IMG/VR virus record: IMGVR_UViG_3300037193_001436
Coordinates: 1 to 64,000 of that record
DNA from: a virus
Direction: 5' to 3' (one strand)
Length of the DNA: 64,000 nt
Positions 32,441 through 43,449 of this stretch are shown here, one piece after another. Position 1 is the first letter of the stretch. Each line of letters begins with the position of its first letter. A program made the position numbers and the translations under genes. Under the pieces are notes generated by a model. The model was given only the letters and a program-made list of their open reading frames with translations, did not search any database and was not told the origin of the DNA.

Positions 32441-32498
32441 TGGAGCGCCGGGGATCGAACCCGGATGTTGCCCCAGGCAACCGCCTTGGCAACGCCCC
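32441..32498 (-). ncRNA. Truncated tRNA-like element (58 nt)
   Basis: GGGGCG/CGCTCC acceptor-like stem, T-arm CCGGG-TTCGATC-CCCGG, no normal anticodon loop. Confidence 0.5.
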
Positions 32499-32506
32499 TC
32501 CTGCTG

Positions 32507-33094
32507 CTAGTTCGTCCAGAGCTGCGAGCTGTACTCGAAGCCGGGCGCGAACTCGAACACGATGTCCTTGGGGTTCGCGACCCCGAACGCGACCTTGAAC
32601 TTGGTCTGCCGACCGTTGAGGACCTTCGTGTCCGGCGAACCGTTGAACCCGTTCGCCGAGTCGAAGATCTCCTCGCCCTCGACGTCACCACTCTGGACGT
32701 TGGCGGTGGTCATCGAGGGGTCGAAGGTCTTGCCGGTCTTGTTCACGATGACGACCGTGAACTGGACGGCGTACTTGAACTTGTCGCCGCCGAAGCCGCT
32801 GTCGGTGGACTTGTACGCCTTCGGTGCCGACACCGTGGCTGACAGCCCGTTCTCCCAGGTGAACGCCTTGCCGAACTTCAGCGTGACGTCCTCGGGCGTG
32901 GGCTCCTCGGTCGGCGTCTCCGTCGCGGGGTCCTCAGCGGGTGCGCTGGTGGCCGTGGTCGACGGGAGCGCGTTGGTCCCCGTCGGCTGCGAGGTGGCCG
33001 CCTCCCCGGTCATACCCGCGCCGCAGGCGGCCAGGCTGACGATGGCGGCACCGGCCGCGAGGGCCAGGGTGATCTTGCGGAACTGCTGAGACAT
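32507..33094 (-). CDS. Lipoprotein (DUF4352-like)
   Basis: Lipobox LAAC, T/P/E-rich linker, beta-rich domain. Confidence 0.8.
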   Translation of the reverse strand: MSQQFRKITLALAAGAAIVSLAACGAGMTGEAATSQPTGTNALPSTTATSAPAEDPATETPTEEPTPEDVTLKFGKAFTWENGLSATVSAPKAYKSTDSGFGGDKFKYAVQFTVVIVNKTGKTFDPSMTTANVQSGDVEGEEIFDSANGFNGSPDTKVLNGRQTKFKVAFGVANPKDIVFEFAPGFEYSSQLWTN

Positions 33095-33194
33095 GTGGTG
33101 TCTCCCCCTCCTGTGGTGGTGATGGTCCGGCCCCTCCCCGGACTAGACCGGGGAGAGGCTACCGGGTTCCCTATCGGTTTGGGAATACGGAGTG

Positions 33195-33446
33195 TTACAT
33201 CGGTGCCGAAAGCAGTTTCGTAGCCTGCTCCAGGGCCGGGTAGACCTCGGCAACCTGCCAGACGCGCTTGAGCGCGCCGTCGACCACCTTCTCGACCAGC
33301 TCCTCGACCTGGACCTTGATCCCGTCGACCAGCCAGACGCGGTAGTCATCCCCCGCGACCTTCAGCTCCATCCCGTCGTCGCCGTAGTGGAGCGTCTTGC
33401 CGTTCTCCAGCTCGTCGAGTCGCCAGACGTAGACCGGGCGTGGCAT
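33195..33446 (-). CDS. Hypothetical protein
   Basis: AAGGAGGT RBS. Confidence 0.7.
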   Translation of the reverse strand: MPRPVYVWRLDELENGKTLHYGDDGMELKVAGDDYRVWLVDGIKVQVEELVEKVVDGALKRVWQVAEVYPALEQATKLLSAPM

Positions 33447-33553
33447 GATGTTGTTACACCTCCTTCCCTTGCCCTAGGCAACGGATTGGTTGGTGGGTGG
33501 GGGCCCAGCCAGACCCTCCCAAGGTTCACCGGCTGGGTCCCCAGTCTTTGGAC

Positions 33554-33847
33554 TCAGTCCCGATCGAGCAGCCGGTTCTGGGACTCGCGGGCCGTCGTGG
33601 CCGTCGCTGCCAGCATGTGCTGGAGCCAGCCGATCTGCGCCCAGACGATCGCGGTGACGATCGCCCCGCCTAGGAGCGTGAGGATGAAGTACAGGGTGGC
33701 GCGACCATCGGTACCGTCGGCCTGTCCGGTCGCCACGGCCAGTGAGAACGCTGCGATCACGGTGCCGACGATGGTGAGCACCATCGCCAGGACCTTGACC
33801 ATGTGGAGCGCCCGGACCAGTCGCACGGCGGCGTCGTAGTTGAACAA
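33554..33847 (-). CDS. Membrane protein
   Basis: Two TM segments, AAGGAGG RBS. Confidence 0.7.
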   Translation of the reverse strand: MFNYDAAVRLVRALHMVKVLAMVLTIVGTVIAAFSLAVATGQADGTDGRATLYFILTLLGGAIVTAIVWAQIGWLQHMLAATATTARESQNRLLDRD

Positions 33848-33870
33848 GGTGTTCCCCTCCTTATCGAGTC

Positions 33871-34251
33871 GGCTGAGCTGCCGAGGTCCGGCCCACGGGC
33901 CGGGGAGACTGCTACTCAGACGCGGGCTGGATCAGGGCGAACAGGCGGCCGACCGAGGCCAGGTCGTTCTTGATCTGGGTCAGCTCGCGGCCCTTCTCGG
34001 TGGCGCTGTCGGCCGCGTTGGCGACCACGGTGGAGTACGACTCCAACCACTGCAGCAGTGACACGCCATTGTCGATGTGACGGGTGCTGTGCACCAGGCC
34101 GCTGTAGCGGAGACCTGACAGCGCGGCGCGGATCTTGGTGGCCTGGTCCTCGGTGATGTAGATGTCCATGAGGTAGTGCTCCTTCTGGGTTGTGGTGGAT
34201 TTGGCTGAGCTGCCGAGGTCCGGCCCGTGGGCCGGGGAGACTGCGGCTCAG
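33871..34251. repeat. Approximately 49-bp direct repeats (33871-33919, 34203-34251) flanking one gene
   Basis: GGCTGAGCTGCCGAGGTCCGGCCC(AC/GT)GGGCCGGGGAGACTGC..CTCAG. Confidence 0.9.
33912..34169 (-). CDS. Hypothetical protein
   Basis: AAGGAG RBS; between direct repeats. Confidence 0.7.
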   Translation of the reverse strand: MDIYITEDQATKIRAALSGLRYSGLVHSTRHIDNGVSLLQWLESYSTVVANAADSATEKGRELTQIKNDLASVGRLFALIQPASE

Positions 34252-34955
34252 GCGGCCTTGTGCTTCCGCATCCTGCCGAGCGAGCTGATGGCGATGGCCT
34301 GCTCGCAGTGGCTGCAGACCCCGTAGTTGCCGGAGGCGTAGCCGCGCCGGGCGGTCTCGCGGGGGTAGTCCATCGTGCCGGAGCCGGGACACAGGCCCTC
34401 CTCGACCGGCTTCTGGGTGCGAGCAACCGGGGCGTCGGGGAAGCAGACGGTGCACAGGATCTCGGAAGAGCCCCGCTTGTCCCAGTAGGCGATCGCCTCG
34501 GCCATCGTCATGCCGGAGACTTCCGGCATCCAGCCGTACTGGGTGCGGGGGTTGCAGGTGGAGCAGTGCATCGACGAGTGGATGTGGCCGTCGCTGCTGG
34601 TGACAAGGAAGAACCGGCTCCAGCCCCGCAGGTCGTGCTCGGCCTCCAGCGGCTCGGCGGCGCGCTTGGCCTCCAAGACCGCCTCGCGCATCTTGTCCAG
34701 GGTGTCCAGGATCCGCTGCGCTGCCCGAGCCTCGTAGGAGTCGGTCGCGGCGAACTGACGCGCCTTGATCTCGGCGTCCACGAAGTCCAGCTCATACACC
34801 CGGTGGTTCCGACTGACCTGACGGCCCGGGTCCCCGGCGTACCGGTGGATGTCACCGGCCAGCCGCTGGATGCGGTCCTCGGCGGCGAGCTGCTTGCCGT
34901 ACAGCTCGGCGAGCTTGGTGTCGATCTCGACGGGGGTGGCGGTCTTGCGATCCAT
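34248..34955 (-). CDS. Actinophage protein with Zn-binding motifs
   Basis: 'GHIHSSMHCSTC...LCTVCFPDAP...CSHC'. Confidence 0.75.
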   Translation of the reverse strand: MDRKTATPVEIDTKLAELYGKQLAAEDRIQRLAGDIHRYAGDPGRQVSRNHRVYELDFVDAEIKARQFAATDSYEARAAQRILDTLDKMREAVLEAKRAAEPLEAEHDLRGWSRFFLVTSSDGHIHSSMHCSTCNPRTQYGWMPEVSGMTMAEAIAYWDKRGSSEILCTVCFPDAPVARTQKPVEEGLCPGSGTMDYPRETARRGYASGNYGVCSHCEQAIAISSLGRMRKHKAA

Positions 34956-34970
34956 CGTGACTCCTTGGTG

Positions 34971-35039
34971 CGCGTGGTGGGTACCCAGCAAGTATGAGGG
35001 ACCTGCGAGCCATGTGTCAACATGACTGGCAGGTCCCTC
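34971..35039 (-). promoter_or_regulatory. Repeated hairpin-promoter cassette, copy 5
   Basis: GAGGGACCTGC...GCAGGTCCCTC inverted repeat enclosing TTGACA on - strand. Confidence 0.8.
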
Positions 35040-35237
35040 GAAGCAGGCGGGTTCAGTCGGGGCTGGGCTTCAGGAAATCCGCCAGCGCATTTCGATCCTC
35101 GGGACTGAAGATGACCACGGAGACTCCGGCAGGACCCTTGACCCTCATGGTCATGCCGCCACTCTCCAGCAGCAGGAACGTCGTCACACGCTTGTTGAGC
35201 GACTGGTGGACCAGCAGGTCTTTCTGGAGGTCGACGC

Positions 35238-36026
35238 TCATCGGTTCTCCTTGCGCGCCTGGAGGTCGACGCCGTAGCTCTTCAGCATCTCCTCGAACGA
35301 CTTGGCTTCGGCGATCCGCTGCTCAACGTCGAAGTCACGGACCATCGACTCGTTCTCCTCATCGATCCAGGTCGGGGGGCCGTACGGGAACGAGTTCAGG
35401 AACTCGACGAACTGGTCATCGCACCACGGCGGAACCCACGCGCCGGACCGGCACACGAAGACGAGGTCGTAGCTGATGTCGACCGGCTTGCCGTCATCGA
35501 TGCGCCGGTCGACGGGGATCACCGGCTGGGGGTCAACGGTGAGCGCTTCGGTGAACCACTGCGGGTAGTGCACGTGCAGCTCGGAGCAGCCTCGCCGGTA
35601 GTGCTCGATCATCCAGTCCTCGCAGGAGAGCGTGCCGCGCCGCTGCCACTCGCCCAGACTGCCGATGTTGTAGCCGCTGTCGTGGTGCGCGTCGTACAGG
35701 TCGACTCGCGCCCAGTGGTCCCCGTCGAGGCCGATCGTCGAGGGCTGCAGCAGCCCGGCGTATAGGTTGCTGTCGGCAACTAGCAAGGATGGCCACTCCT
35801 GAAGGTCGAAGCGCGTCCAGAAGTTCTCGAAGCCGCTCGCACGGGGCAGTGGGAGACCGTTGAGGACGAACGGCTGGACCCGGTCGCGCCAGATGTCGTT
35901 GACGTGGAACTGGGACTCACGGTGGCCCCAGTCGTACAGGAAGATGTCCTCTCGCCCGACGCCGTTGTGCATCGGGTTGGGGAAGAAGTAGTCCCAGTCC
36001 ACGACCAGGAAATTGAGTCCGGTCAT
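35238..36026 (-). CDS. UPF0489/arginase-deacetylase-fold metallohydrolase-like protein
   Basis: 'VVDWDYFF', 'DAHHD', 'CRSGAWVPPWCDDQF'. Confidence 0.7.
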   Translation of the reverse strand: MTGLNFLVVDWDYFFPNPMHNGVGREDIFLYDWGHRESQFHVNDIWRDRVQPFVLNGLPLPRASGFENFWTRFDLQEWPSLLVADSNLYAGLLQPSTIGLDGDHWARVDLYDAHHDSGYNIGSLGEWQRRGTLSCEDWMIEHYRRGCSELHVHYPQWFTEALTVDPQPVIPVDRRIDDGKPVDISYDLVFVCRSGAWVPPWCDDQFVEFLNSFPYGPPTWIDEENESMVRDFDVEQRIAEAKSFEEMLKSYGVDLQARKENR

Positions 36027-36037
36027 CGTGCCTCTCC

Positions 36038-36775
36038 TCAGGTGGTAACGAGGGCCAGCGTAGCCCCGGAGTTGTTATTCTGGGCCTGCTTGGCCTGCTC
36101 CTCGGCGATCCAGCGCTTGCGCCAGGTCCGGCCCATCTTGTCGTCAGCTCCGGCCGCACGGGCCAGCTCAGCGCCGGACGGCATCCGCCCCTCGGCCCGA
36201 GCTGCGTCCCAGCAGGCCCGCGCGTGCGGCTCCTTGACCGCAGGCCGACCCCGGCGCTTCGGCGAGTCATCGACAACGTGGACCGGCTCGGGCTCCGGCT
36301 CAACCGGCGCGGTCTCGACAACCACCGGCTCCGGCTCGGGCTCGATGCTCTCGGCAACGATGTCCTGGACGACGACCGGCTCGGGCTGCTGCAGGGTGGC
36401 CAGCGTGGCCAGGTGGCCGACAGCGCCGAGGGCGATCGGCGGGATCGAGCCGACGATGATCGCCAGCACGACCCGGATGACCGAGGCGTTGTGCATGCTC
36501 ACGATGTGGCCGACGGCGTTGCCGACCACGGACGCGACCAGCGCGGCCACAGAGACACCCCGGGCGTAGCGCCGGGCGTGCGCGTCGGCGAAGTCCGACA
36601 GCCAGACCCGGCCGGACACGATCGCCAGCACGTCGAGGCAGACCGGGAACATCCAGGCCGTCTTGCCGTGCCAGCCGACCCACACGGCCAGGCTGATCAG
36701 GGTGCTGAAGCTGGCCGCGATCGCGACCCCGCCGACGATGGCGAGGCCGACCAGGACCCACGGGTCGCGCTTCAC
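36038..36775 (-). CDS. DUF2637/SpdB-like membrane protein with C-terminal HTH
   Basis: 'AASFSTLISLA...GW...AWMFPVCLD', 4 TM, 'PSGAELARAAG'. Confidence 0.8.
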   Translation of the reverse strand: MKRDPWVLVGLAIVGGVAIAASFSTLISLAVWVGWHGKTAWMFPVCLDVLAIVSGRVWLSDFADAHARRYARGVSVAALVASVVGNAVGHIVSMHNASVIRVVLAIIVGSIPPIALGAVGHLATLATLQQPEPVVVQDIVAESIEPEPEPVVVETAPVEPEPEPVHVVDDSPKRRGRPAVKEPHARACWDAARAEGRMPSGAELARAAGADDKMGRTWRKRWIAEEQAKQAQNNNSGATLALVTT

Positions 36776-37296
36776 GACAGGACCTCCTTCAGGGCGGTCA
36801 GGATCTGGGTGCGCGTGGGGAGCACCGGCCACGGACCTTCCGGCCTGCTCGTGACCGAGTAGTCGGTGTGGCGGAGCAGGGCCTGCCACAGGGTCGTGAC
36901 GCGCGGCTCGCTGGTCAGGATGATCGAGTAGGAGCTGTCCCAGCTCGATTCGGACGGCTGGTCGACGACGGCGAAGATCCGGGCGCGGGCGTCGGAGCCG
37001 AGCTTGCCGAAGAGGCTGGACCCGTTGTCGAGGTGCATCATCAGCTCCAGCGACTCCTCGGTGCCGAGGACCGGGGACGTGATGCTCAGGATCTGCCAGT
37101 CCTCCAGGACGACGGTGATCTCGTCCTCCTCGCCCAGCATGAGGGCCTGGAGGAGATCGGCCACGATGCGGGTGTCTCCGGCCCAGACGACCTGGCGGCC
37201 GTCGTCAGTGGTGCCGGTCATCCGGACGACGCTACCGTCCTGGATCGCCGATCCGGCGTCGCCCAGGTCGACGGTGATGGTCAGGTGGTCGTCCAT
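36772..37296 (-). CDS. Hypothetical protein
   Basis: Operon overlaps. Confidence 0.7.
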   Translation of the reverse strand: MDDHLTITVDLGDAGSAIQDGSVVRMTGTTDDGRQVVWAGDTRIVADLLQALMLGEEDEITVVLEDWQILSITSPVLGTEESLELMMHLDNGSSLFGKLGSDARARIFAVVDQPSESSWDSSYSIILTSEPRVTTLWQALLRHTDYSVTSRPEGPWPVLPTRTQILTALKEVLS

Positions 37297-37601
37297 CAGG
37301 ACCTCCCCAGAATGTTGGAGATGGCTCGGGCCACGCGGCTGTCGTCGATCGGCGCGGTGTCCTCGGGCCAGAGCTTGAGGATCAGCTTGCCGGTCGACAG
37401 GTCGAACACGTAGGACAGGTACTTCGGCATCTCTCGGTGGATCCGGCGCAGCTCGGCGCTGATGACCTTGACGTCGTCGGTCCGCTTGGTGACCTGCAGC
37501 TTGCGCTTGACCGGGTTCGGAACTGCGACGGCGTACCGCTTGTTCGCGGCGCAGCGGACCTTCAGCCCGTCGGCGCTCAGCGTCTTGGCGTTGCGAGACA
37601 T
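37296..37601 (-). CDS. Basic hypothetical protein
   Basis: CCACCAC box and AGGAG RBS. Confidence 0.7.
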   Translation of the reverse strand: MSRNAKTLSADGLKVRCAANKRYAVAVPNPVKRKLQVTKRTDDVKVISAELRRIHREMPKYLSYVFDLSTGKLILKLWPEDTAPIDDSRVARAISNILGRS

Positions 37602-37626
37602 GGGTGCTCCTGTGGTGGTTTTGATT

Positions 37627-37929
37627 TCAGGGGACGATCACGGCCCGGGTCTCTTTGGGAAACCCGTCGGCGACGTAGTCCAGCCAGGAGTTGCGGTTAT
37701 TCACCGTGGCGACGTACTGCAGCGTGAGCCGCTGCTGCACCTTCGGGTCGGTGGCGTTCCGCAACAGGTCCTCCAGCACGTCGATCTCCTTGTCGCGCGT
37801 GGCGATCATCGCCTCCGCCCCGGCCGCCCGCTTGCGCGGAAGGCTCGACCGGAACGGCGAGGACTCGACCGGACCGTTGCGGTCCGCCGTCCTGCTGTCC
37901 CGGGGGAAGGTGGCGACTCGACGAGCCAT
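37627..37929 (-). CDS. Hypothetical protein
   Basis: Promoter cassette and AAGGAG RBS upstream. Confidence 0.7.
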   Translation of the reverse strand: MARRVATFPRDSRTADRNGPVESSPFRSSLPRKRAAGAEAMIATRDKEIDVLEDLLRNATDPKVQQRLTLQYVATVNNRNSWLDYVADGFPKETRAVIVP

Positions 37930-37943
37930 GATGGCGTCTCCTT

Positions 37944-38001
37944 GCGTGGTGGAGCCACCATGGAATCACAACTGTGAGTCATGTGTCTACTTGACTCGCG
38001 G
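37944..38001 (-). promoter_or_regulatory. Repeated promoter cassette, copy 6
   Basis: + strand GCGTGGTGG...CTGTGAGTCATGTGTCTACTTGACTCGCGG. Confidence 0.75.
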
Positions 38002-38052
38002 GTTAGGTTGAACAACTAACCGCCAGGCTCGATCGCCCTAGCCTGTTGGGCA

Positions 38053-38201
38053 TCGACGATTGGTGTAGTGGCCCGGCACCCCACGCCGGGAGCTGCCTGC
38101 ACATCTCTCGGCGGCGTCCGGACGCTCGGGCCGAGCGAATTACTGCACGTGGTTAGCACGCCGGGGCACCGGTGGGCGGGGTTCGATTCCCTGATCGTCG
38201 A
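38053..38201 (+). ncRNA. tRNA-like RNA with expanded, anticodon-less central region (about 149 nt)
   Basis: TCGACGAT/ATCGTCGA closing stem, D-arm GTGT-AGTGGCCCG-GCAC, T-arm CGGGG-TTCGATT-CCCTG; TAGCCT -10 at 38039-38044. Confidence 0.65.
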
Positions 38202-38215
38202 CTTACACTGCGGAC

Positions 38216-38467
38216 ATGAAGCTCATCGGGATCCCACCGCGTGCGACCCAGGCCCAGCAGGCGCTCAACCGGCTGCACCACGAGGTGATGTACGCCGTCG
38301 AGGGGGGTGAGCTGGCCGGGAACTTGACCGAGCTGGCGGAGGCACTGGCGATCGCCGTGCAGATCGGCCGCCTGATCGACAAGGCCTTGCCCGAGGGACA
38401 TCCCGAGCGAATTCAATTTGAGAACGCACTGAACTTCATGCAGGGCCTACACGAGTATCCCCGCTGA
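38216..38467 (+). CDS. Hypothetical protein
   Basis: Leaderless (TACACT-N6-ATG). Confidence 0.65.
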   Translation: MKLIGIPPRATQAQQALNRLHHEVMYAVEGGELAGNLTELAEALAIAVQIGRLIDKALPEGHPERIQFENALNFMQGLHEYPR

Positions 38468-38473
38468 AATTCG

Positions 38474-38725
38474 TCAGCGGAACTGGTCGGCGTTCAGGTA
38501 GGAATTCGCCTGGCCGATCTGGGGCCGGGTCGTCGGCCCATTCGACCCCATGCTCGGGATCGGCATCGCTGGGGACTTGACCATCCTCGCCAGCGCCGAT
38601 TCGGCTCCGCCACCGGCAGCACCTTCGGCTGCCGTTCCAGCGGCTGCCCGGCCGAGCATCGATGCTCCAACCCTCATCAGGGCAGCACGCCCTACCGCTG
38701 CGGCGACTGGTGCGAGGAAGGCCAT
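38474..38725 (-). CDS. Ala/Gly-rich small protein with C-terminal LNADQF motif
   Basis: Leaderless (GACAAT-N6-ATG); ends 'YLNADQFR'. Confidence 0.65.
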   Translation of the reverse strand: MAFLAPVAAAVGRAALMRVGASMLGRAAAGTAAEGAAGGGAESALARMVKSPAMPIPSMGSNGPTTRPQIGQANSYLNADQFR

Positions 38726-38814
38726 GCATCCATTGTCGCGCTCAGCCCGGATCGCTTGTAAGTAACAACTACCGGCCGTGGAAATCGGCCTACCGGTCTC
38801 GGCAGGCTGGATGC

Positions 38815-38970
38815 ATGACCGATGAGGAGTGGATCGAGCGGACGCTGGCCGACGCGCCAGAGCGTCTGTCTGACCGCACCCGCGAGATCATCCTGCGTTG
38901 GCGAACCACACGACCTCAAGCCGCTCCGGATTCCACCGAGCGTTCCGAGATGCAGCCTTCTGCACGATGA
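38815..38970 (+). CDS. Small protein, candidate recombination directionality factor
   Basis: CAGGCT-N6-ATG; 'WIERTLADAPERLSDRTREII'; converges on and overlaps integrase 3' end. Confidence 0.45.
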   Translation: MTDEEWIERTLADAPERLSDRTREIILRWRTTRPQAAPDSTERSEMQPSAR

Positions 38971-40372
38971 TGACCTCGATCTCGGACTGCACCAGCTCAC
39001 GCTTCTGGTCGTAGTAGTCGGGGTCGTCCCAGTGCTCCAGCACGTCCTTCATGTGATCGCGGTTGACCGCCGTCGCGTCGTTGCGGGCCCAGGCTTTCCG
39101 CTGCTTGATCAGCACCTCGGACTCCTGCTCGACCTTGCTGATTTCCGGGAAGACCACCGCAGCCGACAGGGCCCCGGACCGGTACGCGGCCATCAGCTCG
39201 GTCTTCTGCTCCTGGAGACGGGCCAGATCCGCTTCGCCCGGCCACGCGGTGGCGATGTGCTGGTCGAACTTCTCATCCGAGCGAGTGAGCCGGGTAAAGA
39301 CCAGCTCGGAGATCAGTTGATCGGTCCGCGTGAGGTGGATGTAGTTGGACCCGCAATTGAACCGCTTGCCGGACCCCGGCGGGCACTTGTAGGAGCTGGT
39401 GTCCTGGCCCTTGTAGTCCGCTCGACCGCCGGACATCTTGCAGGAGCAGACGCAGCGCATCCGGCCGGAGCACAGGTGCTTGCGGCTGAAGTCCAGGTGG
39501 GCGACGGCGGCGGCGTTCCCATCGAGGCGGGCCTGGATCCGCTCCCACTCCTGAGGGGAGCAAAGAGGCGCGTTGCTCTCGACCGGCTTCCCGTTCACCA
39601 TGATCGGGAAGTTCTTGTACCCGCGCCAGCCAGCCAGGCGCGGCATTCTCAGCCAGGCGCGGAGGGCAGCGGTTGTCCAAGGCCCCCCGCTGGTGTGGTT
39701 CACGTTCTCGGCTCGCAGCCACTTGACGATCGTGCCGCCCTTGTGGCCCGCGAGGTACTTCATGATGATCTGCCGCGCGACTGGGCCCTCGACGGGGTGC
39801 AGGTCGACCTTGTTCTTCTCCCAGCCGAACGGCCGGAAGCGACTGCCGACCGGTCTGCCCATCTCGGCCAGCTCCAGGTGCTTACGCCCCACGCGCCGAG
39901 AGGTGTCGTACGAGGACTTGTTGGCCATCGTGACCAGGAGTCGGGCGAACGTCCGGCCGTCGGCCGTGGCCAGGTTGAGGTCGTTGGTGACGGTCGCGAA
40001 TACCAGGTTCTGGTCCGCCTCGTACAGGTCGATCGCGGCCTCCAGCTCCTTCGGCTGGCGGGTGAAGCGGTCGATGTCGTACGCGACGATGCCCTGAATG
40101 ATCCCGGCCTTCAGATCGGCCAGCATCTGCCAGAACTGCTCCCGGAAGACGTTGCGCTTGTAGGCCGACAGATCGTCGTCGACATAGACCTTGTGGACGG
40201 TCCAATTCCGGGCTTTGGCCAGCGCCCGGCCATCCTTCTCCTGGCGCTTGACGCCCGCACTGAACTCGTCCGGGTTGTTCTTGGACTCGTCGTCCTTGTC
40301 CTCGGAGATCCGGGCGTAGACACCAACCAGGATCGGCGGATTCGCCAGCCGCTGCTTCTTCCCCGTGTTCAT
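38888..40372 (-). CDS. int: Large serine integrase
   Basis: 'YARIS' catalytic Ser, 'VKRQ', 'YVDDDLSA', 'DIDRFTR', recombinase domain 'PFGW', Zn ribbon, coiled coil. Confidence 0.95.
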   Translation of the reverse strand: MNTGKKQRLANPPILVGVYARISEDKDDESKNNPDEFSAGVKRQEKDGRALAKARNWTVHKVYVDDDLSAYKRNVFREQFWQMLADLKAGIIQGIVAYDIDRFTRQPKELEAAIDLYEADQNLVFATVTNDLNLATADGRTFARLLVTMANKSSYDTSRRVGRKHLELAEMGRPVGSRFRPFGWEKNKVDLHPVEGPVARQIIMKYLAGHKGGTIVKWLRAENVNHTSGGPWTTAALRAWLRMPRLAGWRGYKNFPIMVNGKPVESNAPLCSPQEWERIQARLDGNAAAVAHLDFSRKHLCSGRMRCVCSCKMSGGRADYKGQDTSSYKCPPGSGKRFNCGSNYIHLTRTDQLISELVFTRLTRSDEKFDQHIATAWPGEADLARLQEQKTELMAAYRSGALSAAVVFPEISKVEQESEVLIKQRKAWARNDATAVNRDHMKDVLEHWDDPDYYDQKRELVQSEIEVIIVQKAASRNARWNPERLEVVWFANAG

Positions 40373-40388
40373 GCCGCCATGCTCCCAG

Positions 40389-40438
40389 TCGATAGTGTTT
40401 CGAGTCAACTGGGACCAGTTGAATTAGAACGCTATCGA
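40389..40438. other. Putative attP of serine integrase
   Basis: 24-bp imperfect inverted arms (19/24 matching) around central GA at 40413-40414, immediately upstream of int. Confidence 0.75.
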
Positions 40439-40484
40439 GATTCCCAGGCTTGACCTGACGGACTGTTGTTGTACCGTACGCGCC

Positions 40485-40625
40485 ATGGACGAGGACAAGG
40501 CTGTCGACCTGCCGGAGCTGGATGCGCTCAGCAGGGAGTTCGTCGACAAGACGCGCGCAGTGCTTGAAGAGTACGAGGCGCACCACGCGCGGGAAATCGC
40601 TCGGTGCCGAGCCGGTGACAGATAG
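40485..40625 (+). CDS. Small hypothetical protein (46 aa)
   Basis: TTGACC-N16-TACCGT promoter then ATG; divergent from int. Confidence 0.5.
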   Translation: MDEDKAVDLPELDALSREFVDKTRAVLEEYEAHHAREIARCRAGDR

Positions 40626-41066
40626 CCACTAGTTGTTGTACCGTCATGCGCCTGTGAGGTGGAAGTGCGCCATCTCGGCACGCCGGACGGGGCGTGTGGC
40701 GCACAAAGGAAGGACCCCCCGGCGCGAGGGCTAGGGGGTCCTTCTTCTCGTGAGGATCGGTCTCCGGGGTTGGTAGATCCCCGGACCACCGCAGGAGCGT
40801 GGCTTTCACCACCACGCGTCCGCCAGGCTCCACCGCCTCACGCGGGTCTTCAGTTGTCGGCCGCAGCCCGCTCTTGCTCCTTGCGGCGATAGATGCGCTC
40901 TACCCAGCCCGGGTACAGCGTCTCCAACGCCGCGTGCAGGTCCTGGATTCGGCTGCGGGGCACGGTGACAGTGTAGGTGTCGCCGTTCTTGAGGTTCCGT
41001 TCGGACAGCGCGGTGACGACCCGGACGGCGGCGACCTCCAACTCCTCCTGGGGCGTGCGCTCCTTC

Positions 41067-41625: not shown

Positions 41626-41941
41626 GGGTCAGTTCGCGGGCGAGCTGGCGCATCTCGGCCTCGACGTTGACGGCGTATCCCTGCTCGTGCTGGGCCAGAG
41701 CCTGGTCGACCAGGACTTCGAGCCGTTCGTAGACCTGCTGCTCCTGGGGACTTTGTCCGTGGCAGGGACAAATGCACGGGGCCGCACACCACTTGCAGGT
41801 CCCGGGGACTTTCTCCTCCCCCTGCAGATTGGTCCTGCACTGGCAGTGCTGGTGGTTCTCGTGCAGGCAGGCGGTGGACAGGTAGACGTGCGGAGCGCTG
41901 TACCCGGGCCCCGGGGCCTGGGTGTAGTTAGTACTGCTCAT
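41621..41941 (-). CDS. Cys/His-rich hypothetical protein
   Basis: 'HVYLSTACLH...CKWCAAPCICPCH'. Confidence 0.7.
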   Translation of the reverse strand: MSSTNYTQAPGPGYSAPHVYLSTACLHENHQHCQCRTNLQGEEKVPGTCKWCAAPCICPCHGQSPQEQQVYERLEVLVDQALAQHEQGYAVNVEAEMRQLARELTR

Positions 41942-43449
41942 CGCTCGACGACCTCGGCGTCGGGGTAGTACTGCTCGATCGCGCGGTCGGCCGGAACGGG
42001 CTCAGGAAGCGCTCTGGCGCGTTCTGAGGCCTCGTCACCGAACAGACGGGCCAGCATGCCGGGGCCGCCGCCGGAGCCCTTAGCGTCGATCCTGAGACTG
42101 AAGGTCCCCTCCTCCAGCTCGAACTTCTGCTTGATCATCTTGTTCAGCCGGTCGATCTCGCCGGACAGGTTGGGGTCGCTGTAGCCGCCCTCGGCTTCCT
42201 CGGCGAATCGCATGAATAGCACGCGTTGCGTCTGCATCTCGATCAGCGCGTCCTGCAGCGACTTGAACTGGTCACGGGTCTTGATCTGGATCGGGATGTC
42301 GTACTTGCAGGCGCTGCCCGGCTCGAAGCTCGGGCACTTGTTGGCCAGGAAGCAGGAGTCGCAGACCCGGGTCGACTCGCTGCGGATCCCGATGACCGAG
42401 ACCTCGACGTCCTCCTCGGTCCCGTCCTCGTTCTGGACCTTCGAGGTGCGCTTGCCGAGTCCCATGACCGGGATCGGGACTTTGTCCCGTTGGACAGGAG
42501 TTGATGCACGGTGCGCCGTTTCAGGACCAGGACTATCAACTACTGGAAGTCCCGATGCATCGAATGGGTCCGTGTCCTCATCCTGGGGTGTAGTGACTAC
42601 TTTGTCCTGTTCGGGAGCTGAGGGCTCGCCATGGTGCCGGTTGATGTGGTCCTCCAGTTGCCGCCAGGACCAAAGGCTGAGCCGCAGCACTTCGGTCGCG
42701 TCGCCGTCCTCGACCTTCTGCGGGTCCAGCCCGATCCGCTCGAACAGGGTGCGATGGCGCTTGCGGGCCTGCTCCTTGTAGGCCTTCGGGTACCGCTTCA
42801 GCTCGTTGTTGGCCCACACGATCGTGTCGCCGTACCGCTGGGGTGAGATCCAGCTCGTGGAGGCCACCGAGTCCCACTGGACGGTCTGCATCTCCTCGAC
42901 CTTGGTCATCGCCACGCCATGGAGCTTGACACCGTAGCGGGAGACCAGGGAGTTGAGCAGCGGGACCAGGTTCCGGCCGCCGAGCGCGGTCTGCGGGACC
43001 CCGATGCGCTTGTAGGTCCTGGCCATCTCCTGCAGGACCTCGATCCCCCAGTCGGGGTGCCAGATGACCAGCAGTTTGTCCGGGCCGAGCATGTCCAGCC
43101 ACCAGTCGCGCTCGTTCTCGATCCAATTTCTCCCGAGCGGGAGGGCGTCGAACTCCGAAGCGAACTCGATCCGGTCCAGGTTGGAGTCGACGAACGCGCG
43201 GTAGGACAAATACATGTCCTTCAGCTCCCGCTGGCTGTAGGCGTCCTCGTCCTTGGTGTTAACCGTGTAGGCCCCGGAGTCGACGAAGATCCTGGCGTCG
43301 TCGTGGAACTTGTCGGCCAGCAGCCAGGGGCGGGAGAATTTCACCCGGCGGCGCAGGCCGACGAAGGACAACGCGACGTGCGGGGCCTGGGACTCGGTCA
43401 GGATCTTGCGGTGCGAGGGGACCTCTCCCCCGGCCAGGTACAGCCTCAC
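41938..43449 (-). CDS. TGT/DpdA-like (queuine transglycosylase fold) protein with C-terminal Zn-binding domain
   Basis: 'IFVDSGAY', 'VIWH', 'KLHGVA', 'DSVASTSW'; C-terminal 'CDSC...CPSF...C'. Confidence 0.75.
   Translation of the reverse strand: MRLYLAGGEVPSHRKILTESQAPHVALSFVGLRRRVKFSRPWLLADKFHDDARIFVDSGAYTVNTKDEDAYSQRELKDMYLSYRAFVDSNLDRIEFASEFDALPLGRNWIENERDWWLDMLGPDKLLVIWHPDWGIEVLQEMARTYKRIGVPQTALGGRNLVPLLNSLVSRYGVKLHGVAMTKVEEMQTVQWDSVASTSWISPQRYGDTIVWANNELKRYPKAYKEQARKRHRTLFERIGLDPQKVEDGDATEVLRLSLWSWRQLEDHINRHHGEPSAPEQDKVVTTPQDEDTDPFDASGLPVVDSPGPETAHRASTPVQRDKVPIPVMGLGKRTSKVQNEDGTEEDVEVSVIGIRSESTRVCDSCFLANKCPSFEPGSACKYDIPIQIKTRDQFKSLQDALIEMQTQRVLFMRFAEEAEGGYSDPNLSGEIDRLNKMIKQKFELEEGTFSLRIDAKGSGGGPGMLARLFGDEASERARALPEPVPADRAIEQYYPDAEVVER

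What the first reader, a model, noticed from the sequence alone, without database searches (positions are those of the whole stretch)
38053..38201. Anticodon-less, double-D-arm tRNA mimic with its own promoter
Seen: closing stem TCGACGAT/ATCGTCGA, a tRNA-Glu-like D-arm (38061-38079) and a canonical T-arm (38177-38193). About 95 nt replace the anticodon arm: hairpin GCCGGGAG/CTCTCGGC, hairpin CGCTCG/CGAGCG, a second D-loop-like segment TGCACGTGGTTAGCA and a CCGG-GGCA-CCGG GNRA-capped stem where an anticodon should be. CACGCCGGG occurs twice; no encoded CCA; TAGCCT -10 lies 8 nt upstream. Inference: a non-decoding structured RNA (decoy for tRNA-sensing or tRNA-cleaving defences, Y-RNA-like scaffold, or intron-containing precursor).
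Basis: partly seen in the sequence, partly recalled or inferred. Interest (0 to 1): 0.75.

Follow-up and report, generated by a model that had tools for sequence, protein, structure and literature searches.

The report
Phage tRNA look-alike with split D-arm
An uncultured actinobacterial phage that has no ordinary tRNA genes keeps one tRNA-shaped RNA gene that cannot read codons: its anticodon loop is sealed shut and an 81-base folded module sits inside its D-loop; its job is unknown.

Summary
The element is real. The window is a complete 107-kb, 65.7% GC phage, distantly related to the BRock-like Streptomyces phages. At 38053-38201 (+) it carries a perfect 7-8 bp acceptor stem, a canonical T-arm and discriminator A.

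One homologue was found, in metagenome contig L004 (integrase 73% identical, syntenic). At 76% nucleotide identity it keeps the helices, with five two-sided compensatory changes. The + strand folds 10-15 kcal/mol better than the - strand.

- The "two D-arms" are the two halves of one D-arm (UG-GUGU-AGUGG ... A-GCAC). The same arm is contiguous in tRNA-Gln, Arg and Glu genes of BRock and pSt2308.
- An 81-nt (W) or roughly 90-nt (L004) insert in the D-loop splits the arm.
- The anticodon arm is not replaced by ~95 nt. It survives as a short sealed hairpin whose 4-nt loop differs between the two phages (GGCA, AAUG).

It is not a decoding tRNA, YrlA, tmRNA or a host-tRNA attP copy. Most likely it is a non-decoding, tRNA-derived structured RNA. 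Its function and expression are untested, and only two copies are known. This scan has noted other anticodon-less tRNA look-alikes in Streptomyces phages, on other DNA.

The parts
38039..38044 (+). -10-like hexamer TAGCCT (TAGACT in L004), 8 nt before the stem
   Evidence: Conserved as TAGNCT in the W/L004 alignment. The E. coli-type promoter scan finds nothing. Its fit to the Streptomyces -10 pattern TAGNNT rests on my own knowledge.
38053..38060 (+). Acceptor stem, 5' strand: C1-U7 = 38054-60, plus an extra U(-1) at 38053 that pairs with A73
   Evidence: Perfect pairing with 38194-38201, invariant in L004.
38061..38071 (+). U8, G9, D-stem 5' strand GUGU (38063-66) and D-loop 5' part AGUGG (A14, G15, U16, G18, G19)
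   Evidence: 19/19 identical in L004. The same string UGGUGUAAUGG is the 5' half of the D-arm in BRock and pSt2308 tRNA-Gln, Arg and Glu.
38072..38152 (+). 81-nt insert inside the D-loop, flanked by the direct repeat GUGG (38068-71 and 38149-52); roughly 90 nt in L004
   Evidence: Model R1 aligns to ordinary phage tRNAs by skipping about 90 positions exactly here. Removing it leaves a 67-nt cloverleaf. It is 67% identical to L004, with indels of 6 and 1 nt.
38072..38090 (+). Hairpin H1: CCCGGC / GCCGGG with loop ACCCCAC
   Evidence: Two two-sided compensatory changes against L004 (CCCUGGG/UCCAGGG). The loop core CCCCAC is conserved.
38091..38154 (+). Long arm. H5 = AGCUGCCUGCA (38091-101) with UGCACGUGGUU (38144-54). 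H4 = CUCGGC (38107-12) with GCCGAG (38130-35). H3 = GCGU (38114-17) with ACGC (38122-25), loop CCGG. The internal loop is CAUCU / CGAAUUAC.
   Evidence: H3 has two two-sided compensatory changes (GCUC/GAGC in L004). H4 is kept, with one extra pair in L004. H5 is invariant, 11/11 pairs in L004 and 10/11 in W (C.C mismatch). H5 is inferred, not proven; an alternative pairing exists.
38155..38159 (+). A21 and D-stem 3' strand GCAC
   Evidence: Invariant. It pairs with GUGU 38063-66 in both phages. AGCAC is the 3' half of the D-arm in the related phage tRNAs. L004 has no local GCAC partner.
38160..38173 (+). Sealed anticodon-arm stub: G26, CCGG-GGCA-CCGG, U44
   Evidence: A 4-nt loop in W (GGCA). 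L004 has a longer stem with loop AAUG. No 7-nt loop and no U33, so it cannot decode.
38173..38176 (+). Variable loop UGGG (UAGG in L004), 4 nt
   Evidence: Class I length.
38177..38193 (+). T-arm CGGGG-UUCGAUU-CCCUG
   Evidence: Canonical T-loop. One two-sided compensatory change (G-C to A-U) and one G.U to G-C change in L004.
38194..38201 (+). Acceptor stem 3' strand AUCGUCG and discriminator A73 (38201); followed by CUU in W and CCA in L004

Best explanation
This is a gene for a non-decoding, tRNA-derived structured RNA, read from the + strand.

The body is a class I tRNA:
- a 7-bp acceptor stem with C1-G72 and A73;
- U8 and G9;
- the D-stem GUGU/GCAC;
- G18 and G19 in the D-loop;
- a 4-nt variable loop;
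- a canonical T-arm.

Two changes rule out decoding:
1. The anticodon loop has collapsed into a closed 4-nt hairpin, whose sequence differs between the two known copies.
2. An 81-nt module (roughly 90 nt in L004) sits inside the D-loop, just after G19. It consists of hairpin H1 plus a long three-helix arm capped by CCGG.

Shown: the tRNA frame, its homology to real phage tRNAs, conservation with compensatory changes, and the strand asymmetry.

Inferred: the tRNA body gives host-type end processing (RNase P, 3' trimming, CCA addition) and stability. The conserved insert, which projects from the elbow, would then be the working part and bind a still unknown protein or RNA partner.

The exact fold of the insert is not settled, and neither is formation of the long-range D-stem.
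For: 1. The frame is real.
- Acceptor stem, T-arm and A73 are read directly from the sequence.
- ARAGORN detects a tRNA-like gene here in both modes.
- Rfam gives only a tRNA-like mascRNA partial match, E = 0.044.

2. There is a homologue in syntenic contig L004.
- Overall identity is 76%, similar to the flanking genes at 74-78%. The 5' frame is 19/19 identical.
- 42/42 model pairs are kept, with 5 two-sided compensatory changes in H1, H3 and the T-stem. The slid-partner controls give 30-44% paired.

3. Indels of 6, 1 and 4 nt exclude a conserved reading frame.

4. The + strand MFE is 10.5 kcal/mol (W) and 14.6 kcal/mol (L004) below the - strand MFE.

5. Model R1 hits tRNA-Gln, Arg and Glu genes of pSt2308 and BRock at 30-36 bits.
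- It aligns UGGUGUA-UGG and AGCAC as one contiguous D-arm and skips about 90 positions between them.

6. With the insert removed, the sequence is a clean 67-nt (W) or 71-nt (L004) cloverleaf with a 4-nt anticodon loop.

7. The phage has no canonical tRNA, so this is not part of a decoding set.
Against: - Only two sequences are known, so covariation is thin. The 100% pairing figure is partly by construction, because I kept only the pairs that hold in both sequences.
- The long-range D-stem and H5 never vary, so they are supported by homology and not by covariation.
- In W the modelled fold is 8.6 kcal/mol above the MFE, and H5 has a C.C mismatch.
- Block 2 of the insert can pair equally well with the 5' D-half, so another fold is possible.
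- The Levitt pair would be G15.G48.
- There is no evidence of transcription. The promoter scan is empty and no terminator was found on the + strand.
- The element as a whole is no better conserved than the neighbouring genes.
- No partner protein is evident: Ro60, RtcB and a CCA-adding enzyme are absent, and the neighbouring genes match no family.
Confidence: 0.6

Rival explanations
1. It is a decaying tRNA pseudogene: the last relic of the tRNA array that BRock-like relatives still carry, hit by an insertion and a loop deletion, and now without function.
For: - The nearest cultured relatives carry tens of tRNAs and this phage has none.
- The anticodon stub varies freely between W and L004.
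- The insert is flanked by a 4-nt direct repeat, as after an insertion event.
- Overall identity is no higher than in the flanking genes.
- There is no expression evidence.
Against: - At about 24% divergence, all 11 substituted positions inside the modelled helices keep pairing, with 5 two-sided compensatory changes.
- The 5' frame is 19/19 identical, while the adjacent intergenic DNA is 55% identical.
- The insert itself carries invariant 18-nt blocks.
Confidence: 0.15
2. It is a DNA-level site rather than an RNA: the attP of the neighbouring large serine integrase, an operator, or an origin. In this reading the inverted repeats bind proteins.
For: - A large serine integrase lies about 690 bp away (38888-40408, -).
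- The centre of the insert is a perfect 12-bp palindrome in both phages: GCGTCCGGACGC in W and GCTCCCGGGAGC in L004.
- Phage attP sites often overlap tRNA sequences (my own knowledge; this holds mainly for tyrosine integrases).
Against: - The helices contain at least 7 G.U pairs, which would be A.C mismatches on the other strand. The - strand folds 10-15 kcal/mol worse.
- No tRNA gene in the 185,579 species genomes carries the element's T-loop-plus-acceptor string, so there is no host tRNA to match.
- The palindrome centre is a symmetric CG, whereas serine-integrase sites need an asymmetric central dinucleotide (my own knowledge).
- The element is absent beside more distant integrases of the same family.
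Confidence: 0.08
3. It is an intron-containing decoding tRNA, as ARAGORN's intron mode proposes: tRNA-Pro(GGG) with a 55-nt intron and a long variable arm.
For: - The ARAGORN -i call at 38054-38202 has a perfect 5-bp stem CCACG/CGUGG.
- C1-G72 and A73 are typical of bacterial tRNA-Pro (my own knowledge).
Against: - That model needs the local D-arm and a loop that are not kept in L004.
- Position 33 would be C.
- The same ARAGORN mode also gives an obvious false positive inside a gene in this genome.
- No ribozyme or any other Rfam family matches.
- Bacteria have no machinery for protein-spliced tRNA introns, and 55-81 nt is too small for a group I intron (my own knowledge).
Confidence: 0.03
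4. It is a cis-acting processing or stability signal for a + strand mRNA, that is, a tRNA-like punctuation mark upstream of ORF 38216-38467.
For: The 83-codon ORF starts 15 nt after A73 on the same strand and has no promoter of its own detected.
Against: The ORF is missing in L004 while the element is kept. The element therefore does not depend on the ORF.
Confidence: 0.05

Closest known systems
Canonical class I tRNAs of BRock-like Streptomyces phages (tRNA-Gln, Arg and Glu of BRock KX925554 and pSt2308 PV588686; Rfam RF00005)
   Same: Acceptor stem, U8, the D-arm sequence UG-GUGU-A.UGG..A-GCAC, a 4-nt variable loop, and the T-arm GGUUCGAWUCC. Model R1 scores them at 30-36 bits.
   Different: The D-loop holds an 81-nt insert (roughly 90 nt in L004). 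The anticodon loop is a sealed 4-nt loop. RF00005 gives no match even at E <= 10.
YrlA / bacterial and phage Y RNAs (Rfam RF02553; Chen et al. 2014, PMC4201824)
   Same: A non-decoding RNA with a tRNA-like D/T elbow. M. smegmatis YrlA has a 7-bp acceptor-like stem that RNase P cleaves, and it receives CCA (PMC4201824).
   Different: In YrlA the RNA ends form the Ro60-binding stem where the anticodon stem would be, and the acceptor-like stem is closed by a loop. Here the ends lie in the acceptor stem. The phage has no TROVE/Ro60 gene and no RF02553 match.
mascRNA / MALAT1-type tRNA-like small RNAs (Rfam RF01684)
   Same: A small cloverleaf with a shortened, non-decoding anticodon hairpin and a good T-arm. 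Positions 38149-38193 align to it.
   Different: The score is 22 bits against a gathering threshold of 42.5. That family is vertebrate and nuclear, and it has no D-loop insert. The likeness is of form only.
tmRNA tRNA-like domain
   Same: A tRNA-like acceptor stem and T-arm with a non-canonical D region, on an RNA that does not decode through an anticodon.
   Different: There is no G3.U70 (here A3-U70), no reading frame or tag, and no pseudoknots. ARAGORN and Rfam find no tmRNA.
Other anticodon-less tRNA look-alikes, and a D-loop-split tRNA-Asn, noted by this scan in Streptomyces-type and marine phages (e1-5679757, e1-5404565, e1-5753686, e1-5356218)
   Same: Phage genes with intact acceptor and T arms but no usable anticodon; one has a structured insert in the D-loop.
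   Different: Those are unchecked AI notes on other DNA. No sequence similarity to this element was reported. Most have the payload in the anticodon arm and lie inside tRNA arrays, whereas this one is solitary in a phage without tRNAs.

Membership tests
Decoding tRNA (RF00005) | Match to the tRNA covariance model at or near its gathering score | tested here: not met
   No RF00005 match at gathering score or at E <= 10, either locally or over the whole phage.
Decoding tRNA (RF00005) | 5-bp anticodon stem with a 7-nt loop carrying U33 and an anticodon | tested here: not met
   The loop is 4 nt (GGCA in W, AAUG in L004) and unlike in the two copies.
Decoding tRNA (RF00005) | 7-bp acceptor stem stacked on a 5-bp T-stem with a T-loop UUCRANY | tested here: met
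   38054-60 with 38194-200; T-arm 38177-93 with loop UUCGAUU; compensatory change in the T-stem.
Decoding tRNA (RF00005) | Contiguous D-arm | tested here: not met
   The D-stem halves lie 89 nt apart in W (38063-66 and 38156-59). The local alternative in W is not kept in L004.
YrlA / Y RNA (RF02553) | Match to the YrlA model | tested here: not met
   No match at E <= 10 in the whole phage or locally.
YrlA / Y RNA (RF02553) | A Ro60/Rsr (TROVE) gene in the same genome, usually adjacent | tested here: not met
   PF05731 is absent from the complete phage record. A host copy cannot be tested because the host is unknown.
YrlA / Y RNA (RF02553) | 5' and 3' ends pair to form the Ro-binding stem in the place of the anticodon stem | tested here: not met
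   The ends pair as the acceptor stem, and the anticodon position holds a closed hairpin. The architecture is as described in PMC4201824.
tmRNA | tRNA-Ala-like end (G3.U70) plus a tag reading frame | tested here: not met
   A3-U70. ARAGORN finds no tmRNA and Rfam none.
Self-splicing or enzyme-spliced tRNA intron | A ribozyme core or splicing motif, and a functional tRNA after removal | tested here: not met
   No Rfam intron or ribozyme match. Removing the insert still leaves a 4-nt anticodon loop. Splicing itself cannot be tested with these tools.
attP overlapping a host tRNA gene | A stretch identical to the 3' part of a host tRNA gene | tested here: not met
   The T-loop-plus-acceptor string conserved in both copies occurs in no tRNA gene of 185,579 species genomes; the 8 hits are chance matches outside any ARAGORN-called tRNA gene, most apparently coding. 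401 large actinomycete genomes give only 20-67 nt chance matches.
Structured ncRNA under selection (general) | Helices kept by compensatory changes in homologues | tested here: met
   5 two-sided changes in 42 pairs; 17 of 500 shuffles reach this. With only 2 sequences this is suggestive, not conclusive.
Structured ncRNA under selection (general) | Evidence of a transcript | not testable with these tools

The most novel reading that the evidence does not exclude
The element founds a new design of phage RNA. A complete tRNA body serves as a processing and stability chassis, and a conserved module is grafted onto the elbow (the D-loop after G19). The module may switch between two folds, because insert block 2 can pair with either half of the D-arm. 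It would bind or block a host factor that reads tRNA elbows or acceptor ends, for example a tRNA-directed defence or toxin, or RNase P. In that way it would act in lysogeny or early infection of an actinobacterial host.
Probability: 0.2. Interest if true: 0.75.

Novelty: new variant of a known kind. Interest (0 to 1): 0.55.

Why it matters
Phage tRNA genes are usually read as codon-usage helpers or, more recently, as replacements for tRNAs destroyed by host defences. This gene keeps every part of a tRNA needed for folding and end processing but has lost the anticodon, and it is the only tRNA-like gene of canonical size in its phage. That points to uses of the tRNA shape other than decoding.

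The site of the insert is unusual. It lies in the D-loop at the elbow rather than in the anticodon arm, where natural and engineered tRNA scaffolds usually carry their cargo.

If the RNA is made and has a partner, it would give a testable case of a viral tRNA mimic in Actinobacteria. It also shows that tRNA finders and Rfam miss or mis-call such genes: here the calls were tRNA-Cys, tRNA-Pro with an intron, or nothing.

Tried and rejected
Tools that gave nothing or were unavailable
- Rfam at gathering score over the whole window: nothing.
- Rfam at E <= 10 locally: only mascRNA (22 bits) and SNORD94 (15 bits, taken as chance).
- ARAGORN default call tRNA-Cys(GCA) 38112-38202: by my reading its acceptor pairs poorly and position 37 is C, so I rejected it.

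Homologue searches
- blastn against cultured phages with 541 nt and 156 nt at E <= 10: only T-arm matches to tRNAs and chance hits.
- Plasmids: chance hits only.
- IMG/VR protein anchors from both small neighbouring genes and from the integrase profile: none.
- Five IMG/VR DNA patterns, including a gapped split-D-arm pattern: only chance hits in coding DNA.
- Genome contigs with the T-loop-plus-acceptor pattern: 8 chance hits, none in a tRNA gene.
- Integrase search in 401 class-level actinomycete genomes: best 39% identity. R1 finds nothing beside those integrases or the other metagenome integrases.
- Element blastn in 401 family-level genomes: only 20-67 nt chance matches.
- tblastn of the upstream gene against phages: none.

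Ideas tested and dropped
- Antisense pairing of the conserved blocks to the phage's own genes or to its conserved CCACCACGC leader: only chance-level 11-13-mers and 5-6 bp to the leader by eye.
- Extra copies in the genome: none. R1 gives one 13-bit hit inside a gene.
- A 75-nt insertion bounded by the CACGCCGGG repeat: removing it gives the right length but no anticodon stem, and the repeat is not conserved.
- Two decayed tandem tRNAs: the first half has no T-loop.
- An RNA-primed prophage origin as in cluster A mycobacteriophages (PMC7157519): those phages lack an integrase and their RNA is not described as tRNA-like, so there is no support here.
- Phage partners: no Ro60, RtcB or CCA-adding enzyme. 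The neighbouring genes match no Pfam, PHROG or NCBIfam family apart from the integrase, DUF2637 and a DpdA/TGT-like protein.

Full report
**What the window is**

The window is the first 64 kb of a complete 107,209-bp virus record with direct terminal repeats and 65.7% GC. Almost all genes lie on the - strand. The DNA polymerase I is about 50% identical to those of Streptomyces phages Alone3, LuckySocke, GiJojo, pSt2308 and BRock. The host is therefore probably an actinomycete, but it is not known.

The finding lies in a small + strand island, bounded as follows:
- On one side is a - strand gene at 37627-37929, whose promoter region is conserved.
- On the other side are an 83-codon + strand ORF (38216-38467), a small - strand gene, and a large serine integrase at 38888-40408 (PF00239 + PF07508, phrog_95).

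**The observation**

- the 8-bp closing stem;
- the T-arm;
- the CCGG-GGCA-CCGG hairpin;
- the second D-loop-like string;
- the 9-mer repeat;
- the missing CCA;
- the TAGCCT hexamer 8 nt upstream.

The detectors disagree with each other:
- ARAGORN by default calls an implausible 91-nt tRNA-Cys at 38112-38202.
- In intron mode ARAGORN calls tRNA-Pro(GGG) at 38054-38202 with a 55-nt intron. The same mode also gives a clear false positive inside a gene elsewhere in this genome.
- Rfam finds nothing at gathering score. At E <= 10 it finds only a partial match to the tRNA-like mascRNA over 38149-38193, at 22 bits against a threshold of 42.5.
- The whole phage has no RF00005 match at all.

**A homologue**

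Profile search with the integrase found four closer relatives at 59-76% identity. A metagenome scan recovered one of them, L004, whose integrase is 73% identical. L004 is syntenic with window 33000-40858 and carries the element at L004:2595-2436 on its - strand.

Nucleotide identity between W and L004:

| Region | Identity |
|---|---|
| Whole element | 76% |
| 5' frame (19 nt) | 19/19 |
| Insert | 67% |
| 3' frame | 83% |
| Flanking genes | 74-78% |
| Intergenic 38000-38049 | 55% |

Further points from the comparison:
- Indels of 6, 1 and 4 nt rule out a conserved reading frame.
- ORF 38216-38467 is absent from L004.
- In L004, A73 is followed by CCA; in W it is followed by CUU.
- The -10-like hexamer is kept as TAGACT, 7 nt upstream. 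The sigma-70 scan finds no promoter.

The helices read from W alone lose 7 of their 22 pairs in L004, and 136 of 500 shuffles do as well. These helices are:
- the local D-arm 38063-66/38076-79;
- GCCGGGAG/CTCTCGGC;
- CGCTCG/CGAGCG;
- ARAGORN's CCACG/CGUGG.

Three smaller points also fail. The first CACGCCGGG copy is not present in L004. GGCA is not a GNRA loop. That loop reads AAUG on a longer stem in L004.

**The split D-arm**

A fold that holds in both sequences came from the L004 minimum-energy and near-optimal structures. I tested it as follows.

- I built covariance model R1 from the two sequences.
- I ran R1 on the BRock-like phages. It hit ordinary tRNA-Gln(CUG), tRNA-Arg(ACG) and tRNA-Glu genes at 30-36 bits.
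- In those alignments the element's 5' string AUUGGUGUAGUGG lines up with the tRNAs' AUUGGUGUAAUUG or GUGGUGUAAUGG. The element's AGCAC lines up with their AGCAC. About 90 model positions between the two are skipped.
- In the real tRNAs these two strings are the two halves of one D-arm: G10-U13 paired with G22-C25, with A14, G18, G19 and A21 in the loop.
- The "two D-arms" of the element are therefore one D-arm, split after G19 by an insert of 81 nt in W (38072-38152) and roughly 90 nt in L004. The insert is flanked by the direct repeat GUGG.
- Deleting the insert in silico leaves a 67-nt (W) or 71-nt (L004) cloverleaf. It has a 7-bp acceptor stem (C1-G72, A73), U8, G9, the D-arm GUGU-AGUGGUUA-GCAC, G26, an anticodon stem capped by only four nucleotides, a 4-nt variable loop and a canonical T-arm.

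The anticodon arm is thus not replaced by ~95 nt. It is retained as a sealed stub, and the large module sits in the D-loop.

**The insert**

In both sequences the insert can form these helices:
- H1: CCCGGC/GCCGGG in W and CCCUGGG/UCCAGGG in L004, with loop core CCCCAC.
- H5: AGCUGCCUGCA with UGCA(C/G)GUGGUU.
- H4: CUCGGC/GCCGAG in W, with one extra pair in L004.
- H3: GCGU-CCGG-ACGC in W and GCUC-CCGG-GAGC in L004.

**Support and limits**

Support for the fold:
- On the 42 pairs common to both sequences, all cells pair.
- Five pairs changed on both sides: two in H1, two in H3 and one in the T-stem. One more changed from G.U to G-C.
- 17 of 500 shuffles reach these values. Sliding the 3' partners by 1-3 columns gives 30-44% pairing and no compensatory change.
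- The + strand folds 10.5 kcal/mol (W) and 14.6 kcal/mol (L004) better than the - strand, with z-scores of -2.2 and -3.9 against -1.2 and -1.5. This fits the many G.U pairs and argues for an RNA read from the + strand rather than a DNA site.

Limits:
- There are only two sequences.
- The pairs were chosen to hold in both sequences, so the 100% figure is partly by construction.
- The acceptor stem, the long-range D-stem, H5 and the stub never vary.
- In W the model lies 8.6 kcal/mol above the minimum-energy fold, and H5 has a C.C mismatch.
- The invariant insert block AGCUGCCUGCAC can pair with the 5' D-half (-13.9 kcal/mol in both) as well as with the 3' block (-10.8 in W, -17.4 in L004). RNAalifold in fact prefers the pairing with the 5' D-half.
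- The tRNA frame is well supported. The fold of the insert is not settled, and two alternative conformers are possible.

**What it is not**

- Not a decoding tRNA. It has no 7-nt loop, the loop differs between the copies, and there is no RF00005 match.
- Not an intron-bearing tRNA. No ribozyme was found, and removing the insert does not restore an anticodon loop.
- Not YrlA. There is no RF02553 match and no TROVE/Ro60 gene. The RNA ends lie in the acceptor stem, whereas in YrlA they form the Ro-binding stem (PMC4201824).
- Not tmRNA. Position 3-70 is A-U, there is no tag frame, and ARAGORN and Rfam make no call.
- Not an attP copy of a host tRNA. The 20 specified bases of the T-loop and acceptor conserved in both copies occur in no tRNA gene of 185,579 species genomes. 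401 large actinomycete genomes give only short chance matches.

The phage encodes no CCA-adding enzyme and no RtcB. The neighbouring small genes match no family.

**Most likely mechanism**

- Shown: a tRNA-derived, structurally constrained, non-decoding element on the + strand.
- Inferred from what is known of tRNA maturation (my own knowledge, and the M. smegmatis YrlA precedent in PMC4201824): the 7-bp acceptor stem stacked on the T-stem should make it a substrate for host RNase P, 3' trimming and CCA addition. That would give a stable RNA of about 150 nt.
- Inferred: the anticodon stub varies while the insert carries invariant 18-nt blocks. The insert, projecting from the elbow next to G19, is therefore the likely working part. 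It may bind a protein or RNA partner, or block factors that read the tRNA elbow.
- A decoy for anticodon nucleases is unlikely, because the target loop is missing.
- I put 0.6 on "functional non-decoding tRNA-derived RNA", and much less on any particular partner.

**Rivals**

| Rival | Confidence |
|---|---|
| Decaying tRNA relic | 0.15 |
| DNA-level site such as attP or an operator | 0.08 |
| Processing signal for the downstream ORF | 0.05 |
| Intron-bearing tRNA-Pro | 0.03 |

**Novelty**

tRNA look-alikes are known: YrlA, mascRNA and the tmRNA tRNA-like domain. This scan has also noted several anticodon-less tRNA-shaped genes in Streptomyces phages, and one D-loop-split tRNA-Asn, on other DNA. 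Those notes are unchecked leads.

I found no paper describing a phage tRNA-like RNA with a D-loop module. That is a limited search, not proof of absence.

I rate the element a new variant of a known kind. It is of moderate interest, held back by the two-sequence basis and the lack of expression data.

Noticed in passing
window 32441-32498 (- strand): A second, miniature tRNA-like element between two - strand genes. It has a 6-bp acceptor stem GGGGCG/CGCUCC with G3.U70, discriminator A and a T-arm CCGGG-UUCGAUC-CCCGG. Rfam gives only a weak tmRNA_permuted match (11.8 bits, E = 2.4). L004 does not reach this region, so conservation is unknown.
   Followed up: partly
window 38216-38467 (+): An 83-codon ORF with no family match starts 15 nt after the element's A73. 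It is missing from the otherwise syntenic L004, so it is a recent gain or loss (moron-like).
   Followed up: partly
whole phage record (G000): The phage has no canonical tRNA gene (RF00005 at E <= 10). Its nearest cultured relatives, BRock and pSt2308, carry at least 18 and 10 tRNA genes in the 3-kb pieces I fetched.
   Followed up: partly
window 37935-37995 and L004 2650-2715: The divergent promoter and leader of the - strand gene 37627-37929 is strongly conserved in L004 (GTGGTGGAGCCACCAT ... CATGTGTCTACT). The AACAACTA octamer at 38011-18 (e1-6015709) is not conserved in L004.
   Followed up: partly
window 41938-43449 (-): A 503-aa protein matches phrog_887 (queuine tRNA-ribosyltransferase / DpdA-like, E = 1.6e-73). 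It probably belongs to a 7-deazaguanine DNA-modification system. No link to the tRNA-like RNA was found.
   Followed up: no
window 38114-38125; L004 equivalent: The tip of the insert is a perfect 12-nt palindrome in both phages: GCGTCCGGACGC in W and GCTCCCGGGAGC in L004. The CCGG centre is invariant and the flanks co-vary. As RNA it could in principle also dimerise.
   Followed up: no
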